Part shown: positions 16,153 through 35,162 of the stretch, one piece after another | How the letters are laid out: every line of letters starts with the position of its first letter | Position numbering within the stretch: the first letter of the stretch is position 1 | IMG/VR virus record: IMGVR_UViG_3300020276_000001 | Span: 1-64,000 of that record | Origin: a virus | Lineage: Duplodnaviria; Caudoviricetes | Direction: 5' to 3' (one strand) | Length of the DNA stretch: 64,000 bases | Program-made: the position numbers and the translations under genes | The notes under the pieces: model-generated | What the model was told of the DNA's origin: nothing | Databases searched by the model: none | Seen by the model: the letters and a program-made list of their open reading frames with translations, nothing else

Positions 16153-17169
16153 TTGTTTAAGAAAGCGGCAGTATTTACAGACATACACTTTGGTTTGAAG
16201 TCAAACTCAAAGGTGCATAATGATGACTGTGAAGAATTTATTGATTGGTATATAGAACAAGCAAAAGAAAACGGTTGTGAAACTGGAATATTTTGCGGTG
16301 ACTGGCATCATAATCGAAACAGTCTAAACATTACTACCATGGATGCAACCATTAGAAGCCTTGAGAAACTAGGTAAGGCTTTTGAAAAGTTTTACTTCTT
16401 TCCTGGTAATCACGATTTATACTACAAAGACAAAAGAGATATTAATTCCATCGACTTTGCAAGACACATTGAAGGCATTACAATGGTCAATGAGATGATG
16501 ACCGAAGGTAACACTACTTTAATCCCTTGGTTAGTTGGTGATGAATGGAAAAAGATTCCTAAAATAAAAAGCAAATACATATTTGGTCACTTTGAACTTC
16601 CAAACTTTTATATGAATGCTATGGTACAGATGCCTGACACGGGTGAACTACAAGCAGATCATTTCAAGAACCAAGAATATGTGTTTAGTGGTCACTTCCA
16701 TAAGAGACAAGTAAAAGGTCCTGTTCATTATATAGGTAATGCTCTTCCTCACAATTACGCAGATGCCTGGGATGATGAACGTGGTATGATGATACTTGAA
16801 GATGGAGGTGAACCACAGTATATCAACTGGTGGAACTGTCCTAAATATAGAACAGTAAAACTTTCCAGACTGTTAGATGAAAAAGATACACTAATAAAAA
16901 GTAAAATGTACCTACGTGTTACACTAGACTTGCCTATTAGTTATGAAGAAGCAAACTTTATCAAAGAAACTTTCATGAAAGACTATGAATGCAGAGAAAT
17001 TTCTCTTATTCCTAACACACAGGACGAAGAAATGAACTCAGACATAGATATTACGAAGTTTGAAAGTGTAGATGAGATTGTTGCAAAAGAAATTGAAGCT
17101 ATCGAGTCGGATAGTTTTGATAAAAGCAAACTACTTTCAATATATAGAGATTTAAGCAAAGATGATTAA
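16153..17169 (+). CDS. gp47: Recombination endonuclease subunit (Mre11/SbcD-like)
   Basis: Metallophosphoesterase motifs DIHFG, GDWHH, GNHD and SGHFH. Confidence 0.95.
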   Translation: MFKKAAVFTDIHFGLKSNSKVHNDDCEEFIDWYIEQAKENGCETGIFCGDWHHNRNSLNITTMDATIRSLEKLGKAFEKFYFFPGNHDLYYKDKRDINSIDFARHIEGITMVNEMMTEGNTTLIPWLVGDEWKKIPKIKSKYIFGHFELPNFYMNAMVQMPDTGELQADHFKNQEYVFSGHFHKRQVKGPVHYIGNALPHNYADAWDDERGMMILEDGGEPQYINWWNCPKYRTVKLSRLLDEKDTLIKSKMYLRVTLDLPISYEEANFIKETFMKDYECREISLIPNTQDEEMNSDIDITKFESVDEIVAKEIEAIESDSFDKSKLLSIYRDLSKDD

Positions 17170-18934
17170 GATAAAAAGCCTTACAGTTAAGAATTTTATG
17201 AGTGTGGGTAACACTACACAGGGAGTAGACTTTAACAAACAACAACTAACGTTAGTGCTTGGCGAAAACTTAGATCAAGGAGGTGACGATTCTGGTTCAC
17301 GTAACGGTACAGGTAAGACTACAATTATTAATGCGTTGTCATATGCCCTGTACGGCCAAGCACTAACGAACATTAGAAGAGATAATTTAGTAAACAAGAC
17401 CAACAACAAGGGTATGTTGGTTACACTAGAGTTTGATAAAGATGGTAAACAATATCATATTGAAAGAGGACGTAAACCTAACACACTAAAATTTAAGATT
17501 GATAACAAGGAACAAGAGCTTACAGATGAAAGCCAAGGTGATTCACGTAAGACACAGTTGGATATTAACAACCTACTAGGTATGAGTCATGATATGTTCA
17601 AGCATATTGTGGCACTTAATACGTACACAGAGCCCTTCTTAGCACTCAAGAACAATGATCAACGTGCTATTATAGAACAACTGCTTGGTATTACACTACT
17701 TTCTGAGAAGGCAGAGTTGTTAAGAGAACAAATACGTATCAATAGAGATAAGCTAACCGAAGAAAATGCTAGAATAACAGCCGTTAAGGATAGCAACGAA
17801 AAGATCAAAGAGAATATTGAAAGATTGCATAGTAGACGCAAGGCTTGGATTGCACAAAACAAACAGGACTGTGAGAAACTTGCAAAAGCAATCAAAGAAC
17901 TTGAACAACTAGACATCGATCAAGAACTAGAAGATCATGAGAAACTAGAAAAGTGGACTGAGAACAGTAAACATCTTACAAACCTAACAAAAGAAAAAGC
18001 AACTGTTGAACGTGCATTGGAACAAGCCGATAATAATGTAAACAAACTTGGTAAGGATCTTGATGATCTTGAAACTGCCAAGTGTTATGCTTGTGGACAA
18101 GACCTACATGATGACAAACTTGAAGAAATGAAAGACAAGCTACAAAAGGATTATGGTGATGCTCACATTTATCAAACTAGCATGGCAGAAAAAATGCAAA
18201 AGGTTGAAAAACTAATTGAAGACATTGGTGACCTAGAGGCAAAACCAAATACCTTTTATGAAACAGCCAAAGAAGCATATCAACATAGAGGTAATGTTGA
18301 GAGCTTGACTAACAGTTTACGAGAAAAGACTGATGAACTTGATCCATATCAAGAACAAATTAAAGATTTAGAAGATACTGCAATACAAGAAGTGACTTGG
18401 GATACTGTAAACGATCTTAACAGTACTAAAGAACATCAAGACTTCTTATATAAACTATTAACTAACAAAGATAGCTTTATACGTAAGAAGATCATCGATC
18501 AGAACCTTGCATACTTGAATAATAGACTTACATACTACTTAGACAAGCTAGGACTTCCGCATACAGTGGTGTTTAAGAACGATCTAAGTGTTGAGATTAC
18601 GCAACTAGGACAGGATCTAGACTTTGATAACCTAAGTAGAGGTGAACGTAATAGACTTATACTTGGTATGAGTTGGAGTTTCCGTGATGTATGGGAAAGT
18701 CTATATCAAAACATCAACTTATTGTTTATTGACGAATTAGTTGATAGTGGTATGGATGCAAATGGTGTTGAAAACAGTATGAGCATACTTAAGAAGATGG
18801 GTAGAGAACGTCAAAAGAACATTTATCTTATATCGCACAAAGAAGAACTAGCAAGTCGTGTAACAAACGTACTAAAAGTTATAAAAGAAAACGGATTTAC
18901 ATCTTATGACAATGATGTAGAGATAATGCAATGA
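17162..18934 (+). CDS. gp46: Recombination ATPase subunit (Rad50/SbcC-like)
   Basis: Walker A NGTGKTT, coiled coil with CYAC zinc hook, signature LSRGE and Walker B LFIDE. Confidence 0.95.
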   Translation: MIKIKSLTVKNFMSVGNTTQGVDFNKQQLTLVLGENLDQGGDDSGSRNGTGKTTIINALSYALYGQALTNIRRDNLVNKTNNKGMLVTLEFDKDGKQYHIERGRKPNTLKFKIDNKEQELTDESQGDSRKTQLDINNLLGMSHDMFKHIVALNTYTEPFLALKNNDQRAIIEQLLGITLLSEKAELLREQIRINRDKLTEENARITAVKDSNEKIKENIERLHSRRKAWIAQNKQDCEKLAKAIKELEQLDIDQELEDHEKLEKWTENSKHLTNLTKEKATVERALEQADNNVNKLGKDLDDLETAKCYACGQDLHDDKLEEMKDKLQKDYGDAHIYQTSMAEKMQKVEKLIEDIGDLEAKPNTFYETAKEAYQHRGNVESLTNSLREKTDELDPYQEQIKDLEDTAIQEVTWDTVNDLNSTKEHQDFLYKLLTNKDSFIRKKIIDQNLAYLNNRLTYYLDKLGLPHTVVFKNDLSVEITQLGQDLDFDNLSRGERNRLILGMSWSFRDVWESLYQNINLLFIDELVDSGMDANGVENSMSILKKMGRERQKNIYLISHKEELASRVTNVLKVIKENGFTSYDNDVEIMQ

Positions 18935-18935
18935 T

Positions 18936-19340
18936 ATGATACTAGATAAGATCAAAGAACGTGGTGAGGAAATGGCTCCTTTAGAAGGACATGACCGATT
19001 ACAGTACTTGGTTGATCTAGCAAGAGAAGTAGAACCATTAAGTGCCGAAGATAAAATAGACGAAAACAAAATAAGAGGGTGTGCAAGTAATTTGTGGGTA
19101 GTAGGTAAGATGAATAAAGACGGAACAATGTCTTACAGACACGACGGAGATGCTTGGATTACAAAAGGTACTGCAAAAGTAATAGTTGATCTAGTAAACG
19201 GTGCACACAGAAGCGAGATTGCACACCTTACAATAGAAAGTTTCCAAGGATTGGGGATAAGAGAGTTACTAACCATGCAGAGACAAGTGGGGTTTGGCAG
19301 TTTAATTGAACGTATTATAGGTATAGCAAAACATGGATGA
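18936..19340 (+). CDS. sufE: SufE-family sulfur-acceptor protein (auxiliary metabolic gene)
   Basis: RLQYLVDLA, ENKIRGCASNLW (acceptor Cys), DGDAWITKG and LGIRELLTMQRQVG match the SufE pattern; 134 aa. Confidence 0.85.
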   Translation: MILDKIKERGEEMAPLEGHDRLQYLVDLAREVEPLSAEDKIDENKIRGCASNLWVVGKMNKDGTMSYRHDGDAWITKGTAKVIVDLVNGAHRSEIAHLTIESFQGLGIRELLTMQRQVGFGSLIERIIGIAKHG

Positions 19341-19539
19341 TACACACGATAAATTAACCAAAGCATACTTGGAATATTTCAAAGCCAACGAGGCTTGGGA
19401 AGTACGCAAGAGTGAACGTACTAAAAGATCCTCAAGAAAATGGTTAAGTGAGATACGTAGACTGTGTACAGAACGTAGAAAAGAAATAATAGAAGAGTAC
19501 AAAGCCAAAAATGGTAGCCCTAGCGATGATACTGAGTAA
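19333..19539 (+). CDS. Hypothetical small basic helical protein
   Basis: 68-aa ORF overlapping the end of sufE. Confidence 0.7.
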   Translation: MDDTHDKLTKAYLEYFKANEAWEVRKSERTKRSSRKWLSEIRRLCTERRKEIIEEYKAKNGSPSDDTE

Positions 19540-19547
19540 GTATCACT

Positions 19548-19970
19548 ATGCAATGGACATATCAGGGTAAAAAAGTAGACGAGCTACCAGAAGACTGCGA
19601 AGCATTTGTTTACTTAATCACAAATACAACCAACAATCGTAAATACGTCGGCAAAAAACTAGCTAAATTCAAAAAGACTAGGCCACCTCTGAAGGGTAGG
19701 ATAAACAAACGTAGAAGCAAAGTAGAATCAGACTGGAGAGACTATTGGGGCTCCTCAGATCAACTACAAGAAGACGTGAACCAGATAGGCGAAGACAAAT
19801 TTACAAGAGAGATATTATACTATTGTCCAAGTAGAGGCGTAGCAAGTTATTTAGAGGCAAGAGAACAGTTCGAAAGAAGAGTCCTAGAGAAGGACGAGTA
19901 TTACAATGGTATCATCAACGTCAGAGTAGGCGGATCCAAAATATTACGTGAAGCATTAAAAGGCAAATAA
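19548..19970 (+). CDS. Small GIY-YIG family nuclease (DenA/Seg-like)
   Basis: AFVYLITN...KYVGKK, DYWGSS, F-x-REIL and YYNG motifs, with a basic insert. A TAAGTA late-promoter variant lies at 19537-19542. Confidence 0.85.
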   Translation: MQWTYQGKKVDELPEDCEAFVYLITNTTNNRKYVGKKLAKFKKTRPPLKGRINKRRSKVESDWRDYWGSSDQLQEDVNQIGEDKFTREILYYCPSRGVASYLEAREQFERRVLEKDEYYNGIINVRVGGSKILREALKGK

Positions 19971-19971
19971 C

Positions 19972-20327
19972 ATAACAACATTGTTTGGTCGGGGTAGCTC
20001 GACCCGTATTGAGGTCACGAAGTATGACCGGAACTTACGAGTTGTAAGGGTAAGCTAACTAAAGGCTTAAAAGATGTGGCTCTGTGAAACAGATACAACC
20101 ACAGCATTAATATATTTTGCTTAACAAGGGTATATTAGTGTTCCGAAACTATGCGAAGGCTAAGGTAGGGAGTTGGCGGGTTTCCGCTTCCGTACATATT
20201 ATAATGTAATCCTTTTTGTTAAGATGGTAATCTCATCTCACATGATGTAACCAATCTTTGCCCGGAGACGGGCGAAGTATGGCTCAACTATCTACATGAT
20301 GCAAAGTGCTAACGCACTAATTGTTAT
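19972..20327 (+). ncRNA. Candidate large structured non-coding RNA (about 356 nt), family unknown
   Basis: ORF-free and more GC-rich than its flanks. It has a closing stem ATAACAA/TTGTTAT, about 10 hairpins with G-U pairs, a GAGA tetraloop and two long-range pairings. Confidence 0.65.
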
Positions 20328-20365
20328 CACATACAATAAAATTGTTTGAGTGTTAACGAAAACAA

Positions 20366-20385
20366 AGTTGAGCTTTAGCTCAACT
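20366..20385. terminator. Perfect hairpin between convergent transcripts
   Basis: AGTTGAGC-TTTA-GCTCAACT, immediately after the stop of the minus-strand 64-aa gene. Confidence 0.55.
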
Positions 20386-20386
20386 A

Positions 20387-20581
20387 CTAATGCAGTTCCG
20401 GATCGCGTCCGTAACGAAATGCATCACTATCGTATACAGCAACTTCTTCCACTTTATATTCTTTTTGTGGATTAGCGTCCTTTAACTGTTGTACTGTGAG
20501 ATCAGCTTCAAGCTCGTCACTGCATTGAGTTAAGGGTTCAGAGTTGCCTATCTCAAAAACATTATATCTCGTCTGAGGCAT
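20387..20581 (-). CDS. Hypothetical protein (64 aa)
   Basis: ORF preceded by a minus-strand GTAAATA late-promoter motif (about 20587-20593). Confidence 0.65.
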   Translation of the reverse strand: MPQTRYNVFEIGNSEPLTQCSDELEADLTVQQLKDANPQKEYKVEEVAVYDSDAFRYGRDPELH

Positions 20582-20615
20582 AAGAGTATTTACGGGGTAT
20601 GTTCGATGAATTATG

Positions 20616-20623
20616 TATAAATA
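20616..20623 (+). promoter_or_regulatory. T4-type late promoter TATAAATA
   Basis: Exact T4 late consensus. Related TAAATA boxes on + at about 24624, 27222, 29061, 30027, 34449, 37254, 38760, 46423, 53104, 54228, 58031 and 62392, and on - at about 9273, 9739, 15196 and 24648. Confidence 0.85.
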
Positions 20624-20645
20624 TAAAGTAACAGGAGACTAAACC

Positions 20646-21209
20646 ATGAAAATAACACAAATAACAAGCGAAAATATAGTTAGCGAAGCTCCTGGTGGTT
20701 CTGCGTTAGGCAATATAGCACGTAAGGTAGGCGCAAAAGTGGCTGGCGCCGTTGGCGCAAAGGCTACCGCCGCAGGAATGACGGGAAAAGCTGATGCTAA
20801 CGACAGATCAAAAGAAATGTTTACACAGTATAGAGCATTTATGGGTCAAACAGGTGGTAATCCAAAAGCACCAACAGTTGACCAAGTACAAGACTTTATG
20901 CAAAAGCAAGGACTTTCAACTACACATCTTAAAGGGTTATCAGGACAGATGACACCTAAGCAGGTTGACGATGTTTTACAAAAAACTGCACAGGATACTT
21001 TTAAAGGCGACCTAGGAAAACAACAAGCAGGGTCGGCACCAGCAACACTAGGACAAAAATATAGTGGAGGCGGTGATGCACCAGCAGGTGGTACTGATCA
21101 AGCAGGCGCTCCAGCTAAAGCTGGCGGTAAAGCTGTGCCAGGTGACATACAAAAAGCAGTTGATAGTTTAAGTCCAGCACAGAAAAAAGAATTAGCACAG
21201 TTGTTATAA
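20646..21209 (+). CDS. Ala/Gly-rich putative internal head protein
   Basis: Late promoter and AGGAG RBS; N-terminus MKITQITSENIVSEAP. Confidence 0.6.
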   Translation: MKITQITSENIVSEAPGGSALGNIARKVGAKVAGAVGAKATAAGMTGKADANDRSKEMFTQYRAFMGQTGGNPKAPTVDQVQDFMQKQGLSTTHLKGLSGQMTPKQVDDVLQKTAQDTFKGDLGKQQAGSAPATLGQKYSGGGDAPAGGTDQAGAPAKAGGKAVPGDIQKAVDSLSPAQKKELAQLL

Positions 21210-21219
21210 GGATAGAGTA

Positions 21220-23526
21220 ATGAAGTTAGGCGAAGTTACAAACTATAATTTAAAATCACAAACAATACTAGCAGAAGGCTGGCAGGATCTTAACGAAGCA
21301 CAACGTATATACGTTGGCAAATGGGAAAGAGAAGTTTGGCCATTAGTAGAAGGCATTAACAAACTTTTTGAAGCTGAACTTACTGCTAAACAGATTGATG
21401 GCATCTTTGGTAATGCAGAACAAGTTGCTATGGATAGTGGTGATAATAAAACTGCACTTGGTAAAGCGGGTGGAGTTGTAGGTGACCAAGCTAAAAAATT
21501 ACAAACACAAATTGACCAATTACTTAAGGCCGCACAAGATAGCGGACCTGTTAAAAACTTTGACGCACAATTTGAAAAACTTAAAGCACAATTAAAAACA
21601 AAACTTGAAGGCAATCCAATGGGTCAAAAGATCCTTAAGACTGTCGAAGGTTACGGAGACTTTGCAAAAGGAAATCCAGCCAAGGCGGCTTTTGTTATTG
21701 GAGCAATGACTTCAGTACTTGCATTTGCAAGTGGTGGTATTGTTTCAGGTGCGGCAATTGGTTTCTTTTTAAAATTAGCTAACAATACATTAAAAGGCGA
21801 TAAACTTTCAACAGCAGTTGCTAAAGGTGTTAAAGGCGCGGCAATTGGTGCACTTGCAGGTGCATTAGGCGATGCGATGGGAGATGCTGAAGCATCTGAA
21901 CTGATACCTGGAGTTGATGCAGATGAAGCCGCTGAGGTTAGTTCAACAATGGACGGTGATGAAGTTGAAGCCGCGGTTGGTGCCGATGCTGATGCTGATG
22001 GCGGAGGTGAAACTCCTGAACTTCCTGATGTTGACGAATTCAAAGAAAATTATATTAGAGGAATGATTGAGAAAGGTAGATTTGCCAATCAAGAGTTTAC
22101 TGACGGCATGGTCCAAAAGATGGCCAACGAAGTTAATATAGTAGGAACATATCCAGATGATATCCAAGGCGTAGACTTTAAAGGTACTATTGTTAAAGGA
22201 AACATTTATCTTACTCCGGAAGAACAAGCAGACTTTAGTGCTTACTTAAAATCACAGCCTGGAAGTGATATGGCTAAGATAATGAGTAAAGAAACTGATG
22301 AGTGGTTAAGTGCGAATGTTAGTGAAGCAGATAACACATTTCAAGTAAGAGATGATGCATTTGCGGCCAAGCAGGCGGCCATTGAAGCAGATAAAGTATT
22401 AGATGCGGCTGAAGTTGAAGGAATGGCTGAAACAGATATCCAAGCCAGAATGAACGAGATCCAGAAATCAACTAATCCAGTTACTGGAGGAAAAATTGAT
22501 GTTGAGAATGGTAAAGATGCACTAGCAAGAGAGTATAGACAACTTCAAAATGAACTTAATCGTAGAGAAGAATTAAACTTTTCAGGTGCAACAACAGATC
22601 CAACAGGACTTATACAAGAGTATACAGATTACCTAGACGACACAATGGTTGAAGGGCCAGTTCTTGACAAAATGAAAGCACTTGCTAAATCAGGTGCAGT
22701 AGCAGTTGGCAAGGGCATGGATAAAGCAGGTGAAAAAGTTGCAGGTGGAATTAGCAAAGCCGGAGCCGCAGTTAAAGGTGCAGGTAAACAACTTGGAAAT
22801 AAAATTACAAAAGAAAAATTAATGAAGTCTTGGACTAAGATGGGCAAACCAACTGACCTAGGATCAATAACAAACATATTAAGCGATGCAGGGTTATCAG
22901 ATGAGTCAATAGGTACAGTTGCAACTAACACAAAGGTTCCTTTAAAACCTACAGCAAAACCAGACGCAGGTGAAGAAGATCCTAAAGCACCAACACCGGG
23001 AGGAGCAACAGCTAAACCAGGAGCAGAACCAACTGACACTGATGCAGTTGCTAAAGGAGTTGATGCAAACAAAGATGGTAAAGATGACAAGACAGGTAAA
23101 GTAATTCAGATGCCCGGCACGACACCAGCTGACGGAGTTGACGCTCCTAAGAGTGGAATAGCAAAAGGTGCCGCAGGTGCAAGTGCACCAGCAGGTGATA
23201 AGAGTATTAAAGTTACAGGAATGCCTGGACAAGGTGCAGGAGGTTCAACAACTTCAACAACTGGAACTAAACCAGGTGCAACAGCAAAACCTAAAGCAGG
23301 TGCAACAGCAGGTGCAGGTGCAAAAGTTGATATTCCGGCACTAGCTAAACAAATAAGTGATGCAGGAATAGGTGCTGAGATAAAAGGTCAGCTTACAGGA
23401 CAGGGTGGCGGAAGTGATCTTGGATCAGGAATGCAAATTGATATACCTACACTAGCACAAAAGATTAGTGATGCTGGTATGCAACAACAAATTAAACAAC
23501 AACTTTCACAAAAACAAACAGCCTAA
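21220..23526 (+). CDS. Large low-complexity putative internal/ejection protein with a hydrophobic segment
   Basis: 768 aa with hydrophobic AAFVIGAMTSVLAFASGGIVSGAAIGFFL and a duplicated C-terminal DIPxLAxxISDAG. Confidence 0.6.
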   Translation: MKLGEVTNYNLKSQTILAEGWQDLNEAQRIYVGKWEREVWPLVEGINKLFEAELTAKQIDGIFGNAEQVAMDSGDNKTALGKAGGVVGDQAKKLQTQIDQLLKAAQDSGPVKNFDAQFEKLKAQLKTKLEGNPMGQKILKTVEGYGDFAKGNPAKAAFVIGAMTSVLAFASGGIVSGAAIGFFLKLANNTLKGDKLSTAVAKGVKGAAIGALAGALGDAMGDAEASELIPGVDADEAAEVSSTMDGDEVEAAVGADADADGGGETPELPDVDEFKENYIRGMIEKGRFANQEFTDGMVQKMANEVNIVGTYPDDIQGVDFKGTIVKGNIYLTPEEQADFSAYLKSQPGSDMAKIMSKETDEWLSANVSEADNTFQVRDDAFAAKQAAIEADKVLDAAEVEGMAETDIQARMNEIQKSTNPVTGGKIDVENGKDALAREYRQLQNELNRREELNFSGATTDPTGLIQEYTDYLDDTMVEGPVLDKMKALAKSGAVAVGKGMDKAGEKVAGGISKAGAAVKGAGKQLGNKITKEKLMKSWTKMGKPTDLGSITNILSDAGLSDESIGTVATNTKVPLKPTAKPDAGEEDPKAPTPGGATAKPGAEPTDTDAVAKGVDANKDGKDDKTGKVIQMPGTTPADGVDAPKSGIAKGAAGASAPAGDKSIKVTGMPGQGAGGSTTSTTGTKPGATAKPKAGATAGAGAKVDIPALAKQISDAGIGAEIKGQLTGQGGGSDLGSGMQIDIPTLAQKISDAGMQQQIKQQLSQKQTA

Positions 23527-34461: not shown

Positions 34462-34530
34462 GTCTATAGAGCGAGTCGCCATACAGCGGCGGACTTATGC
34501 GGAATACCATCCGCGTAGACCTAGAACGTC
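34462..34530 (+). promoter_or_regulatory. Structured 5' leader after late promoter GATAAATA (34449)
   Basis: Hairpins GAGTCGCC/GGCGGACTT and TATGCGGA/TCCGCGTA just before the GGAG RBS. Confidence 0.5.
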
Positions 34531-34544
34531 AAAGGAGAAACAAA

Positions 34545-35162
34545 ATGGGAAGACCAATTAATAAAAAACACATTGGTGATGGAGCAGGTAAAATCCAAGT
34601 AACTGCGGTTAAATTCGCGGCAGGTGGAGAAATTACTACTGAGTCACACATTGTGAATCAAAGATCAGCAAATAAATTTACTGTTACAGACGGAAGTAAA
34701 ACTGAAGTATGTACACTTGTTAACAAGTCAATCGGTGGTTTAGGTGCTAGTGAATTTTGTATCAACGTTACAGACAGTGATGGTGTTACAAAACAAGTAA
34801 CTAAAATGTTCAACAGAAAAATGCAACTTGAAGGAGCAACTAGACATAAATGGGCTAGAAACTCTGCAGGTGCATCTACGGCAGTTGAGAAAGTTATTTC
34901 AGGTGCTACAGCGGCAGATCCAGTTGTTATTACAGCAACAGGACACGGCTTCAGCAACGGAGATAAAGTATCTATCCGTGGCGTAGTTGGAATGGTTGAG
35001 CTTAACACTGAAACTGCATATACAGTGGCAAACAAAGCAACTAACACATTTGAATTATCAGGTGTTGACGGTAGTGGCTTTACTGCATACGGTAGTGCTG
35101 GAGTGGCAACTAAAGCGGCGGCTGAAGCTGGCGGCATTGTTGTTGACGCACAGGCATCGTAA
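34545..35162 (+). CDS. Virion structural/decoration protein with an FCCH-like beta domain
   Basis: Start reassigned to ATG 34545 (AAGGAG RBS). ISGATAADPVVITATGHGFSNGDKVSIRGVVGMVELN is the phage FCCH-like motif. Confidence 0.7.
   Translation: MGRPINKKHIGDGAGKIQVTAVKFAAGGEITTESHIVNQRSANKFTVTDGSKTEVCTLVNKSIGGLGASEFCINVTDSDGVTKQVTKMFNRKMQLEGATRHKWARNSAGASTAVEKVISGATAADPVVITATGHGFSNGDKVSIRGVVGMVELNTETAYTVANKATNTFELSGVDGSGFTAYGSAGVATKAAAEAGGIVVDAQAS

What the first reader, a model, noticed from the sequence alone, without database searches (positions are those of the whole stretch)
19548..20327. Compact GIY-YIG nuclease immediately followed by a ~356-nt highly structured RNA: candidate nuclease-RNA system
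Seen: starting 2 nt after the nuclease stop, ATAACAA (19972) can pair with TTGTTAT (20321) to enclose an ORF-free region almost fully tiled by helices. These include GGTCGGG/CTCGACC (19987-20004), GGTCA/TGACC, CTTACG/TGTAAG, TAAGC/GCTTA, TGTGG/CCACA around TCTG/CAGA, a 13-bp stem at 20104-20141, GCGG/CCGC, TACAT/ATGTA, CTTTGCCCG-GAGA-CGGGCGAAG (20256-20277, GNRA loop) and AGTGC/GCACT. Two long-range pairings also occur: CTTAACAA (20120) with TTGTTAAG (20216), pseudoknot-like, and GTAGGGAGTTGG (20165) with TCAACTATCTAC (20284). ACATGATG occurs twice (20240, 20294). Many G-U pairs favour a plus-strand RNA. The 140-aa nuclease has no separate DNA-binding domain but has a K/R-rich insert (KKLAKFKKTRPPLKGRINKRRSK). 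Inference: an undescribed large ncRNA, possibly forming an RNP with the nuclease (by analogy to 3'-encoded RNAs of small RNA-associated nucleases), or a ribozyme or replication-origin element. I cannot match it to a family I know.
Basis: partly seen in the sequence, partly recalled or inferred. Interest (0 to 1): 0.85.

Follow-up and report, generated by a model that had tools for sequence, protein, structure and literature searches.

The report
Knotted twin-box RNA behind phage nuclease
The gene-free stretch behind a small DNA-cutting enzyme gene of this uncultured marine T4-like phage encodes a real, intricately knotted RNA of about 355 bases. Its family is not catalogued and its job is unknown, but it is its own gene, not a guide for the enzyme, because related phages carry it without that enzyme.

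Summary
Window 19971-20327 (+) is a conserved structured RNA: MFE z = -5.9, and 51 of 83 proposed pairs show compensatory changes across 33 relatives. It contains at least two covarying pseudoknots. G-U pairs outnumber A-C 297 to 52, which fixes the plus strand. It matches no Rfam family, though a diverged relative carries a Polynucleobacter-1 (RF01718) module in its 5' half.

The oddest feature is two single-stranded boxes, CU(C)-NN-AURAW, at 20237-47 and 20292-301. They stay identical to each other through about 20 variants, and no complementary partner exists inside the RNA.

The "nuclease-RNA system" reading is weakly supported.
- **For linkage:** the RNA lies beside the GIY-YIG gene in more than 200 contigs, and in one phage lineage the order is reversed.
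- **Against dependence:** at least eight contigs have the RNA with no such nuclease nearby, one of them beside a PD-(D/E)xK nuclease. Others have genes inserted between nuclease and RNA. Identical nucleases carry different boxes. The nuclease family is a single-copy syntenic gene in cyanomyophages that lack the RNA.

My best reading is an independent trans-acting RNA made as the tail of an operon, whose twin boxes address an unknown external partner. This scan has reported the same "twin-box" family several times on other DNA.

The parts
19548..19970 (+). Stand-alone GIY-YIG nuclease gene (140 aa) with a K/R-rich beta-hairpin insert. It is a neighbour of the RNA, not a shown partner.
   Evidence: PF19835 E 5.8e-35. 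AF2 pLDDT 96, with strands 40-45 and 55-60 forming the insert. Best PDB fold match is the I-TevI catalytic domain, E 0.03. Single copy in the 104-kb contig.
19971..20327 (+). Whole twin-box RNA, about 355 nt, running from just after the nuclease stop codon to the U-rich tail behind the last hairpin.
   Evidence: nhmmer family profile covers 19971-20325. z -5.9. 86.9% of cells paired, covariation 0.363 vs 0.163 in shuffles, 0 of 500 shuffles as high. G-U 297 vs A-C 52 cells.
19975..20045 (+). 5' multi-branch domain. Closing helix ACAAC/GUUGU (19975-79/20041-45), hairpin 19987-20004, helix 20005-08/20036-39 and hairpin 20013-29. This part is variable or replaceable between subtypes.
   Evidence: Helices 1-4. 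The hairpin 19987-20004 is absent in 14 of 33 relatives. The 5' half is replaced by other modules in diverged members.
20051..20102 (+). Hairpin 20051-69, then helix GUGG/CCAC (20076-79/20099-102) capping the near-invariant loop GCUCUGWGAAAAAG(AUA)CAAC.
   Evidence: helices 5, 6. The loop motif found family members independently of the nuclease.
20105..20140 (+). Long G-U-rich stem (20105-18/20127-40). Its loop UAACA (20122-26) forms pseudoknot PK2 with UGUUA (20217-21).
   Evidence: Helix 7: 9 of 14 pairs compensatory. Helix 8 (PK2): 100% paired, 4 of 5 compensatory. Among the top mutual-information pairs.
20145..20214 (+). Knotted core. PK1 GAAACU(20145-50)/GGUUUC(20179-84) crosses hairpin GGGAG/CUUCC (20168-72/20187-91) and helix AAGG/CCUU (20162-65/20211-14). 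Includes the variable hairpin 20193-208.
   Evidence: Helices 9-13 are 91-100% paired. Compensatory pairs: 4/6, 4/4, 2/5 and 4/4 (helix 12 is a single pair). Mutual information.
20237..20247 (+). Twin box 1, CUC-ACAUGAUG (variable core 20240-46), single-stranded.
20256..20277 (+). GNRA-capped hairpin between the two boxes.
   Evidence: Helix 14: 95.9% paired.
20292..20301 (+). Twin box 2, CU-ACAUGAUG (variable core 20294-300). It is preceded by UCAAC (20285-89), which may pair with GUUGG (20172-76) as a tentative third pseudoknot.
   Evidence: Box identity. Tentative PK3: invariant within the subtype, but GUUGG/UCAAC is replaced by GGUCAG/CUGACU in subtype B1.
20305..20327 (+). 3' hairpin AGUGC-UAAC-GCACU with a U-rich tail, the likely intrinsic terminator and 3' end of the RNA.
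   Evidence: Terminator-like site. The stem covaries between relatives, and the UUAUU-rich tail is conserved.
20366..20385 (-). Terminator hairpin of the convergent 64-aa ORF (20387-20581, minus strand). It marks the end of the plus-strand transcription unit.

Best explanation
Window 19971-20327 (+) is a gene for a stand-alone structured non-coding RNA of about 355 nt, the "twin-box RNA" of aquatic T4-like and related phages.

**Shown.** It is a plus-strand RNA structure. It has a 5' multi-branch domain, a core tied by at least two pseudoknots, and a 3' domain made of two similar units. Each unit is a single-stranded segment ending in a box, followed by a hairpin. The last hairpin looks like an intrinsic terminator. 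The two boxes, CU(C)-N1N2-A-U-R-A-W, stay identical to each other while N1, N2, R and W change between phages.

**Inferred.**
- The RNA is transcribed as the tail of whichever plus-strand operon precedes it, here gp47-gp46-SufE-68aa-nuclease, and ends at its own terminator.
- The pseudoknotted body is a rigid scaffold that displays the two boxes.
- The boxes are read by two copies, or two symmetric halves, of one external partner. That partner could be a protein dimer or a nucleic acid, and its specificity drifts between phages.

The GIY-YIG nuclease is a frequent neighbour. It is probably a DNA-processing enzyme in its own right, either T4 EndoII-like or junction-cutting. It is not an obligate partner or an RNA-guided effector.
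For: **Real RNA**
- MFE z -5.9.
- 83 pairs, 86.9% of cells paired against 37-48% when slid.
- 51 pairs have compensatory changes; covariation 0.363 vs 0.163, with 0 of 500 shuffles as high.
- The top mutual-information pairs are all Watson-Crick partners, including both pseudoknots.
- G-U 297 vs A-C 52 cells.
- No ORF. Conserved in hundreds of contigs at 60-98% identity.

**Operon tail plus own terminator**
- The RNA starts within a few nt of the upstream stop codon, whichever gene that is.
- Terminator-like 3' hairpin.
- Contigs from RNA libraries of two studies run from inside the nuclease gene through the whole RNA without joints.

**Independence from the nuclease**
- Eight loci of 8-14.5 kb have the RNA but no GIY-YIG homologue, one of them beside a PDDEXK_15 nuclease.
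- Inserted genes separate the two in L216, L249, L238, L299 and L346.
- The identical nuclease proteins of L193 and L263 carry different boxes.
- The nuclease family is single-copy and syntenic (after nrdA-nrdB) in cyanomyophages, and is present in Melnitz, all without the RNA.

**Boxes read from outside**
- Box position 2 is identical in 107 of 107 unique sequences while using all four letters. Position 1 is identical in 105 of 107.
- About 20 variants exist.
- At least 16 label changes are needed on the nuclease tree.
- The best mutual-information partner of each box column is the same column of the other box. No complementary column exists in the RNA.
Against: - No partner has been identified. 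No complement of the box is enriched in flanking DNA, in the window or in the 104-kb contig.
- Linkage to the nuclease is much tighter than for a random neighbour: 113 of 113 and 95 of 96 informative loci.
- That linkage survives an inversion of gene order in L237 and L206, which hints at a functional tie.
- The transcript's ends, strand and abundance were not shown. The RNA-library data are contigs only, and DNA carry-over is not excluded.
- The nuclease-free loci are fragments, so the nuclease could lie elsewhere in those genomes.
Confidence: 0.6

Rival explanations
1. Nuclease-RNA ribonucleoprotein. The RNA binds the DNA-binding-domain-less GIY-YIG protein through its K/R-rich hairpin. The two identical boxes address a dimer or tetramer of it to a dyad-symmetric DNA or branched target, so that it acts as an RNA-guided or RNA-scaffolded cutter.
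For: - Adjacent in more than 200 contigs, and the pair stays together when the order is reversed.
- The nuclease lacks the C-terminal DNA-binding domain of Seg/Tev enzymes.
- The boxes are hypervariable yet twinned, as two guides for a symmetric target would be.
- In one nuclease-less locus another nuclease, PDDEXK_15, sits beside the RNA.
Against: - The RNA occurs without the nuclease in at least 8 loci.
- The nuclease family is mostly RNA-less.
- Identical nucleases carry different boxes.
- Genes are inserted between the two.
- No target carrying the box complement was found.
- Boxes of 7-8 nt are very short for a guide.
Confidence: 0.1
2. Replication-origin or primer RNA. The structured transcript forms a persistent hybrid, or is processed to prime DNA synthesis, and the twin boxes are iteron-like sites for an initiator. 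Earlier agents of this scan guessed the same.
For: - It lies in the recombination/replication gene block, next to gp47/gp46.
- Twinned direct repeats resemble iterons.
- From my own knowledge: T4 origins use transcripts as primers, and oriE has iterons.
Against: - No GC- or AT-skew inflection at 20.3 kb. The only switch, near 14-16 kb, follows gene orientation.
- The constraint is on RNA pairing, with G-U asymmetry, not on duplex DNA.
- In other phages the RNA sits next to baseplate genes.
- There are only two repeats.
Confidence: 0.1
3. Cis-acting 3' UTR. A large protective or regulatory structure stabilises or terminates the upstream operon mRNA and has no trans function.
For: It always starts right after an upstream stop codon on the same strand and ends in a terminator-like hairpin.
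Against: - A 350-nt double pseudoknot with invariant single-stranded motifs and twinned boxes is far more than protection from exonucleases needs.
- The upstream gene differs between phages: GIY-YIG, a 369-aa unknown protein, a methyltransferase-like protein, a dioxygenase-like protein.
- In L237 it precedes the nuclease instead.
Confidence: 0.08
4. Translation-apparatus mimic. Each box reads as a sense triplet, mostly NNA, followed by UGA or UAA. The RNA would display two identical codon-plus-stop sites to bind two copies of a tRNA, a release factor or a ribosome-associated nuclease, acting as a decoy or sponge.
For: - In 16 of the 21 variants listed, positions 4-6 of the box are U-R-A. In three more (AUCGUGA, AUCAUGA, AUCGAGA) positions 5-7 are UGA or AGA, one position later.
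- The preceding triplets are ACA, GCA, GAA, AGA, AAA, AUA, GGA, UCG, UCA and UGG.
- From my own knowledge: T4-type phage tRNAs read NNA codons.
Against: - This rests on pattern reading only.
- No tRNA genes occur in the 104-kb contig.
- The residue 3' of the triplet is U, not the purine used by T-box specifier loops (my own knowledge).
- No T-box or tRNA-like Rfam hit.
Confidence: 0.06
5. Self-processing RNA, or the substrate of a dimeric RNase. The two identical boxes are twin cleavage or ligation sites that release or circularise the roughly 54-nt unit between them.
For: Twin identical sites flank a stable hairpin, within a complex pseudoknotted fold typical of ribozymes.
Against: - RNA-library contigs from two studies cross both boxes with no joints (table 5).
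- No match to any ribozyme family in Rfam.
Confidence: 0.05

Closest known systems
Polynucleobacter-1 RNA motif (Rfam RF01718; Weinberg et al. 2010, PMC2864571)
   Same: In the diverged family member L060, the 5' half of the nuclease-downstream RNA matches RF01718 at 59.4 bits against a cut-off of 37. The 3' half of the same RNA is the twin-box domain. Both are aquatic, and neither has a known function.
   Different: The window's RNA does not match RF01718 even at E<=10. RF01718 has 141 positions with no pseudoknots or twin boxes in the model. Here it appears as one interchangeable 5' module of a larger RNA.
Large ornate ncRNAs of unknown function that are often phage-borne (GOLLD RF01998, ROOL RF03087; cryo-EM preprint 10.1101/2024.12.08.627333, seen)
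   Same: Large, highly structured, pseudoknotted and phage-encoded, with no known biochemical role.
   Different: No sequence or structure match. It is smaller, at about 355 nt. The twinned hypervariable boxes have no described counterpart. Multimer formation was not tested.
3'-encoded guide RNAs of small transposon nucleases (omega RNA / reRNA of IscB and TnpB; HEARO)
   Same: A structured RNA starts at the 3' end of a small nuclease gene, and a short variable segment sits in a conserved scaffold.
   Different: The nuclease is GIY-YIG, not RuvC/HNH. There are no transposon ends. The RNA exists without the nuclease. The variable part is two internal 7-nt boxes, not one terminal guide of 16-20 nt.
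T4 endonuclease II (DenA) and Seg/I-TevI GIY-YIG enzymes (for the protein)
   Same: GIY-YIG fold: PF19835, and best PDB match to the I-TevI catalytic domain. It is about 140 aa and stand-alone, like DenA at 144 aa as annotated. In cyanomyophages the orthologue follows nrdA-nrdB, as denA does in T4.
   Different: No detectable sequence similarity to DenA. It has no DNA-binding domain, unlike Seg and Tev enzymes. It is single-copy and syntenic rather than sporadic like homing endonucleases.

Membership tests
Any Rfam 15 family | Covariance-model score at or above the family's gathering threshold | tested here: not met
   No hit in 19971-20345 at gathering score. Only four chance-level hits in the scanned 19400-20700 (only the snoRNA hit overlaps the RNA) with E 2.7-8.4 at E<=10.
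Polynucleobacter-1 (RF01718) | Score of 37 bits or more against the 141-position model | tested here: not met
   The window gives no hit. Relative L060 gives 59.4 bits in its 5' half. No hit in 121Q, PBECO4, RaK2 or Melnitz.
Group I intron carrying a GIY-YIG homing endonuclease | Group I core (P3-P9), and interrupted exons of a host gene | tested here: not met
   No Intron_gpI hit at E<=10. The flanks are a complete nuclease ORF and a convergent ORF, so no split gene exists.
Nuclease guide-RNA systems (omega RNA/TnpB-IscB type) | Obligate co-occurrence of the RNA with its nuclease | tested here: not met
   At least 8 loci have the RNA but no GIY-YIG gene. Many genomes have the nuclease but no RNA.
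Nuclease guide-RNA systems (omega RNA/TnpB-IscB type) | A variable guide segment complementary to a target | tested here: inconclusive
   Variable twinned boxes exist. No complementary target was found in flanks, window or contig.
SegE_GIY-YIG domain family (PF19835), for the protein | Pfam score above 25 bits, and the conserved Y...Y-G, R, E and N catalytic positions | tested here: met
   120.6 bits. Invariant Y22, Y33, G35, E103 and N120, and nearly invariant R87, in 38 diverse homologues.
Free-standing homing endonucleases (Seg type) | C-terminal DNA-binding domain, and sporadic presence or absence between close relatives | tested here: not met
   The protein is 140 aa, catalytic domain only. 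It is present in every close relative at the same place and is one syntenic copy per cyanomyophage genome.
T4 endonuclease II (DenA) | Sequence homology to DenA | tested here: not met
   BLASTP finds no alignment at E<=100. DenA hits PF01541, not PF19835. Only the position after nrdB in cyanophages is shared.
Intrinsic terminator (3' hairpin 20305-18) | GC-containing stem followed by a U-rich run | tested here: met
   Called by the consensus scan. The stem covaries and the U-rich tail is conserved in 33 diverse members. Termination itself was not tested.
C/D-box or k-turn RNA (the boxes resemble RUGAUGA) | C and D boxes forming a k-turn, and a score against snoRNA/sRNA models | tested here: not met
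   Only SNORD105 at 16.8 bits, E 2.7. Many box variants (AUAAU, AUAAA) lose the GA of a C box.

The most novel reading that the evidence does not exclude
The two boxes are a pair of identical, evolvable address elements on a rigid RNA scaffold. They direct a symmetric effector to a dyad-symmetric or branched nucleic-acid target. The effector would be the neighbouring junction-type nuclease, whether GIY-YIG or its PD-(D/E)xK stand-in. That would be a new RNA-addressed DNA-processing system in lytic phages. An equally unexcluded variant is that the identity of the boxes serves template jumping, as repeat-flanked templates do in telomerase RNA or DRT2 ncRNA.
Probability: 0.07. Interest if true: 0.92.

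Novelty: new variant of a known kind. Interest (0 to 1): 0.62.

Why it matters
Large, elaborately folded RNAs with no known function are rare, and each one solved so far has revealed new biology. This one is abundant in ocean and lake T4-like phages: the window's exact nuclease protein alone is seen on 318 contigs.

It has a compact multi-pseudoknot core suited to structure determination. It also shows an unusual evolutionary signature: two short single-stranded boxes that mutate together to remain identical. That signature points to an unknown partner read twice, and it gives a direct experimental handle, namely changing one box, both boxes, or swapping variants.

The result also corrects the tempting "new RNA-guided nuclease" reading. 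The nuclease is a frequent neighbour, not a necessary one.

Tried and rejected
- **Rfam.** Scanned at gathering score and at E<=10; nothing found for the window.
- **tRNA/tmRNA.** None in the window or in the 104-kb contig.
- **Cultured carriers.**
  - blastn and nhmmer found no RNA homologue in Melnitz, S-SSM5, S-SRM01, P-TIM68 or the T4 region.
  - My twin-box covariance model R1 (which has only 5 base pairs) and RF01718 gave no credible hit in E. coli phages 121Q and PBECO4, Klebsiella phage RaK2, Melnitz or S-SSM5.
I guessed which phages were meant.
- **Partner of the boxes.**
  - No enrichment of the box complement in about 1.7 Mb of flanking DNA. The same-sense extra copies are a conserved gp47/gp46 coding motif.
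  - No excess of box or complement in the window.
  - No inverted-repeat target.
  - No complementary column inside the RNA by mutual information.
  - Direct box-box pairing is rejected, because most variants are not self-complementary.
- **Convergent nuclease substitutions.** I looked for these in the two AGAUAAU lineages. The result was uninformative: the nearest neighbours are about 83% identical and the shared changes look phylogenetic.
- **Origin test by skew.** No inflection at the locus.
- **Expression.**
  - Only Logan contigs were available, so no ends, strand or level could be read.
  - Runs X2 and X9 had no contig of this strain over most of the RNA, which proves nothing. No joints were seen.
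- **Nuclease structure.** Foldseek against the PDB gave only weak GIY-YIG hits, with I-TevI at E 0.03. phmmer against PDB sequences gave nothing.
- **Literature.** Fremin et al. 2023 (PMC10690425, more than 10,000 viral candidate RNAs) does not mention this element in its main text, and its supplements are not held. The element may still be among their unnamed candidates.
- **Complex prediction.** Not used, because it takes no RNA.
Full report
**Setting**

The window is the first 64 kb of a 104-kb IMG/VR viral contig. Around the finding, the plus strand carries five genes:
- gp47-like, 16153-17169
- gp46-like, 17162-18934
- a SufE-domain protein, 18936-19340
- a 68-aa ORF
- the 140-aa nuclease, 19548-19970

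The gene-free stretch follows. After it come a convergent 64-aa ORF on the minus strand (20387-20581) with its own terminator hairpin, and then more plus-strand genes. The closest isolates are the Methylophilales (OM43) myophages Melnitz. They share the nuclease at about 70% nucleotide identity and 73% protein identity. This is therefore an uncultured marine T4-like myophage.

**Is the structure real?**

Yes.
- The plus strand of 19971-20390 folds at -128.8 kcal/mol, z -5.9 against dinucleotide shuffles. The minus strand gives z -4.1.
- Fetching loci by nuclease homology and comparing the downstream DNA showed the stretch conserved directly behind the gene at 68-98% identity.
- After profile iteration, all 112 unique nuclease-downstream regions hold at least the 3' half of the element.

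On a 33-sequence alignment I wrote a structure of 83 pairs in 15 helices. I derived it from a stacked-covariation scan and from mutual information. Counting gave these results:
- 86.9% of cells paired, against 74.9% in shuffles and 37-48% when partners are slid.
- 51 pairs with changes on both sides.
- Covariation 0.363 against 0.163, with 0 of 500 shuffles as high.

Four elements are 100% paired, each with two to four compensatory pairs:
- PK1, 20145-50 with 20179-84
- PK2, 20122-26 with 20217-21
- the hairpin 20168-72/20187-91
- the helix 20162-65/20211-14

G-U cells outnumber A-C cells 297 to 52. The constraint therefore acts on the plus strand, the strand of the nuclease gene.

The 5-bp part of that long-range pairing, GUUGG/UCAAC, may still be a third pseudoknot. 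In subtype B1 the corresponding segments read GGUCAG and CUGACU. I count this as tentative.

**Anatomy**

From 5' to 3':
1. A multi-branch 5' domain closed by (G/A)CAAC/GUUG(C/U). It is variable, one hairpin is missing in 14 of 33 relatives, and diverged members carry other modules in its place.
2. A hairpin whose loop, GCUCUGWGAAAAAG(AUA)CAAC, is almost invariant.
3. A long G-U-rich stem whose loop forms PK2.
4. The knotted core containing PK1.
5. Two similar units, each made of UGG, 7-10 nt, (A/U)CU(C), the box, a linker and a hairpin.

The second hairpin is followed by a U-rich tail. The scan calls it terminator-like, and it covaries across 33 diverse members.

**The twin boxes**

Box 1 (20237-47) and box 2 (20292-301) share ACAUGAUG here. 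Across relatives the core reads N1-N2-A-U-R-A-W. About 20 variants occur, including ACAUGAU, GCAUGAU, ACAUGAA, GAAUAAU, AGAUGAU, AGAUAAU, AAAUGAA, AUAUGAU, GGAUAAU, UGGUAAU and AUCGUGA.

- In 107 unique sequences, position 2 is identical in both boxes in all 107 while using C, G, A and U. Position 1 is identical in 105.
- In 82 B1 sequences, position 7 is A/A in 67, U/U in 14 and mixed in 1.
- On a nuclease tree the box labels need at least 16 changes. The concerted change has therefore happened many times.
- In mutual-information scans, the best partner of every box column is the same column of the other box. No column shows a complementary pattern.
- Most variants are not self-complementary, so the boxes do not pair with each other.

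I conclude that something outside the RNA reads both boxes, or that identity as such is required. I could not find the partner.

**Is it a nuclease-RNA system?**

Linkage is strong:
- The nuclease lies directly upstream in 113 of 113 informative type-A loci.
- It is upstream in 93, and downstream in 2, of 96 informative B1 loci.
- In L237 and L206, a different phage type, the order is RNA then nuclease.

Four results speak against dependence:
1. A search with the invariant hairpin-loop motif, which ignores the nuclease, found eight loci of 8-14.5 kb with a complete RNA and no GIY-YIG homologue. These are L350, L351, L396, L418, L425, L436, L444 and L389. Their upstream genes include a 369-aa unknown protein and a methyltransferase-like protein. 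In L389 a PD-(D/E)xK nuclease lies upstream on the opposite strand (PF24608; PHROG "RusA-like Holliday junction resolvase"). In the L350-type loci a baseplate gene lies downstream.
2. Extra genes are inserted between nuclease and RNA in L216, L249, L238, L299 and L346.
3. The nucleases of L193 and L263 are identical in protein sequence, but their boxes differ.
4. The nuclease family is very large: 2037 clusters at 50% identity, mostly 130-170 aa. It is found in 496 cultured-phage records, one match per record, most of them cyanomyophages. In the cyanomyophages inspected it follows nrdA-nrdB, the place of denA in T4. The three cyanophage loci and Melnitz that I tested lack the RNA.

The protein is a confident GIY-YIG fold with a K/R-rich beta-hairpin. 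It is nearest to the I-TevI catalytic domain and has no sequence similarity to DenA. Its own role could be host-DNA degradation like EndoII, or junction cutting like the enzymes that occupy this slot elsewhere. That remains an inference.

**Expression**

Contigs from RNA libraries of two studies cover 19923-20600 (X1) and 19929-20449 (X3, a 521-nt contig). They cross both boxes without joints. This agrees with read-through from the nuclease gene and gives no sign of excision. It shows neither ends nor strand, and DNA carry-over cannot be excluded.

**Comparison with known families**

No Rfam family fits.

In the diverged member L060, the 5' half of the RNA is a bona fide Polynucleobacter-1 motif at 59.4 bits, while the 3' half is the twin-box domain. 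RF01718 is therefore probably one interchangeable 5' module of this larger RNA class, and it is the closest catalogued relative.

In size and ornateness the RNA resembles GOLLD and ROOL, but it shares no sequence or model match with them.

It fails the defining test of nuclease guide RNAs, which is obligate co-occurrence.

**Earlier notes of this scan**

Look-ups show that the same family was reported at least eight times on other genomes under the name "twin-box RNA", with the same Polynucleobacter-1 lead.

I re-derived the following here on independent loci: the structure, the box identity, the RF01718 link and one case of a swapped nuclease. I could not reproduce the claim of copies in E. 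coli giant phages with my model.

- the box grammar, CU(C)-NN-AURAW
- the lack of any internal partner
- the reversed gene order in a second phage type
- identical nucleases carrying different boxes
- explicit nuclease-free loci

**Verdict**

This is a real, uncatalogued, multi-pseudoknotted phage ncRNA with a striking twinned-box signature and unknown function. It is most likely an independent trans-acting RNA, confidence 0.6. The RNA-guided-nuclease reading is unlikely, about 0.1, but not excluded.

Noticed in passing
window 34475-34547 (+): A freshwater-2 RNA motif (RF02980) scores just above its gathering threshold (52.5 vs 49.9 bits) elsewhere in the same phage contig.
   Followed up: no
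window 18936-19340 (+): The phage encodes a SufE-domain protein (PF02657, E 1e-27) between gp46 and the nuclease. This is an Fe-S cluster auxiliary gene sitting in the recombination operon.
   Followed up: no
window 21220-23526 (+): A 768-aa, Ala/Gly/Lys-rich, low-complexity protein with no Pfam or PHROG match lies just downstream, preceded by a 187-aa protein of similar composition.
   Followed up: no
L346:4480-5753 (+): In one relative, two auxiliary metabolic genes are inserted between the nuclease and the RNA: an IMPDH/GMP-reductase-like gene and a gene that PHROG labels cysteine dioxygenase.
   Followed up: partly
L216, L249, L238, L299 (about 300 nt after the nuclease): A conserved ORF of about 90-100 aa (MAKLNWQK.../MTKFDYSK...) of unknown function is inserted between the nuclease and the RNA in some B1-type phages.
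   Followed up: no
L001:4438-4480 (Melnitz-1): Melnitz lacks the RNA. It keeps the CAUAGCAAC motif right after the nuclease stop, there as part of a simple hairpin followed by a TATAAATA late-promoter-like box. This may be a minimal remnant or a precursor of the RNA's closing helix.
   Followed up: no
L201:3564-3636 (S-SSM5): In cyanophage S-SSM5, the orthologous nuclease is followed within 160 nt by a tRNA-Arg gene instead of the twin-box RNA.
   Followed up: no
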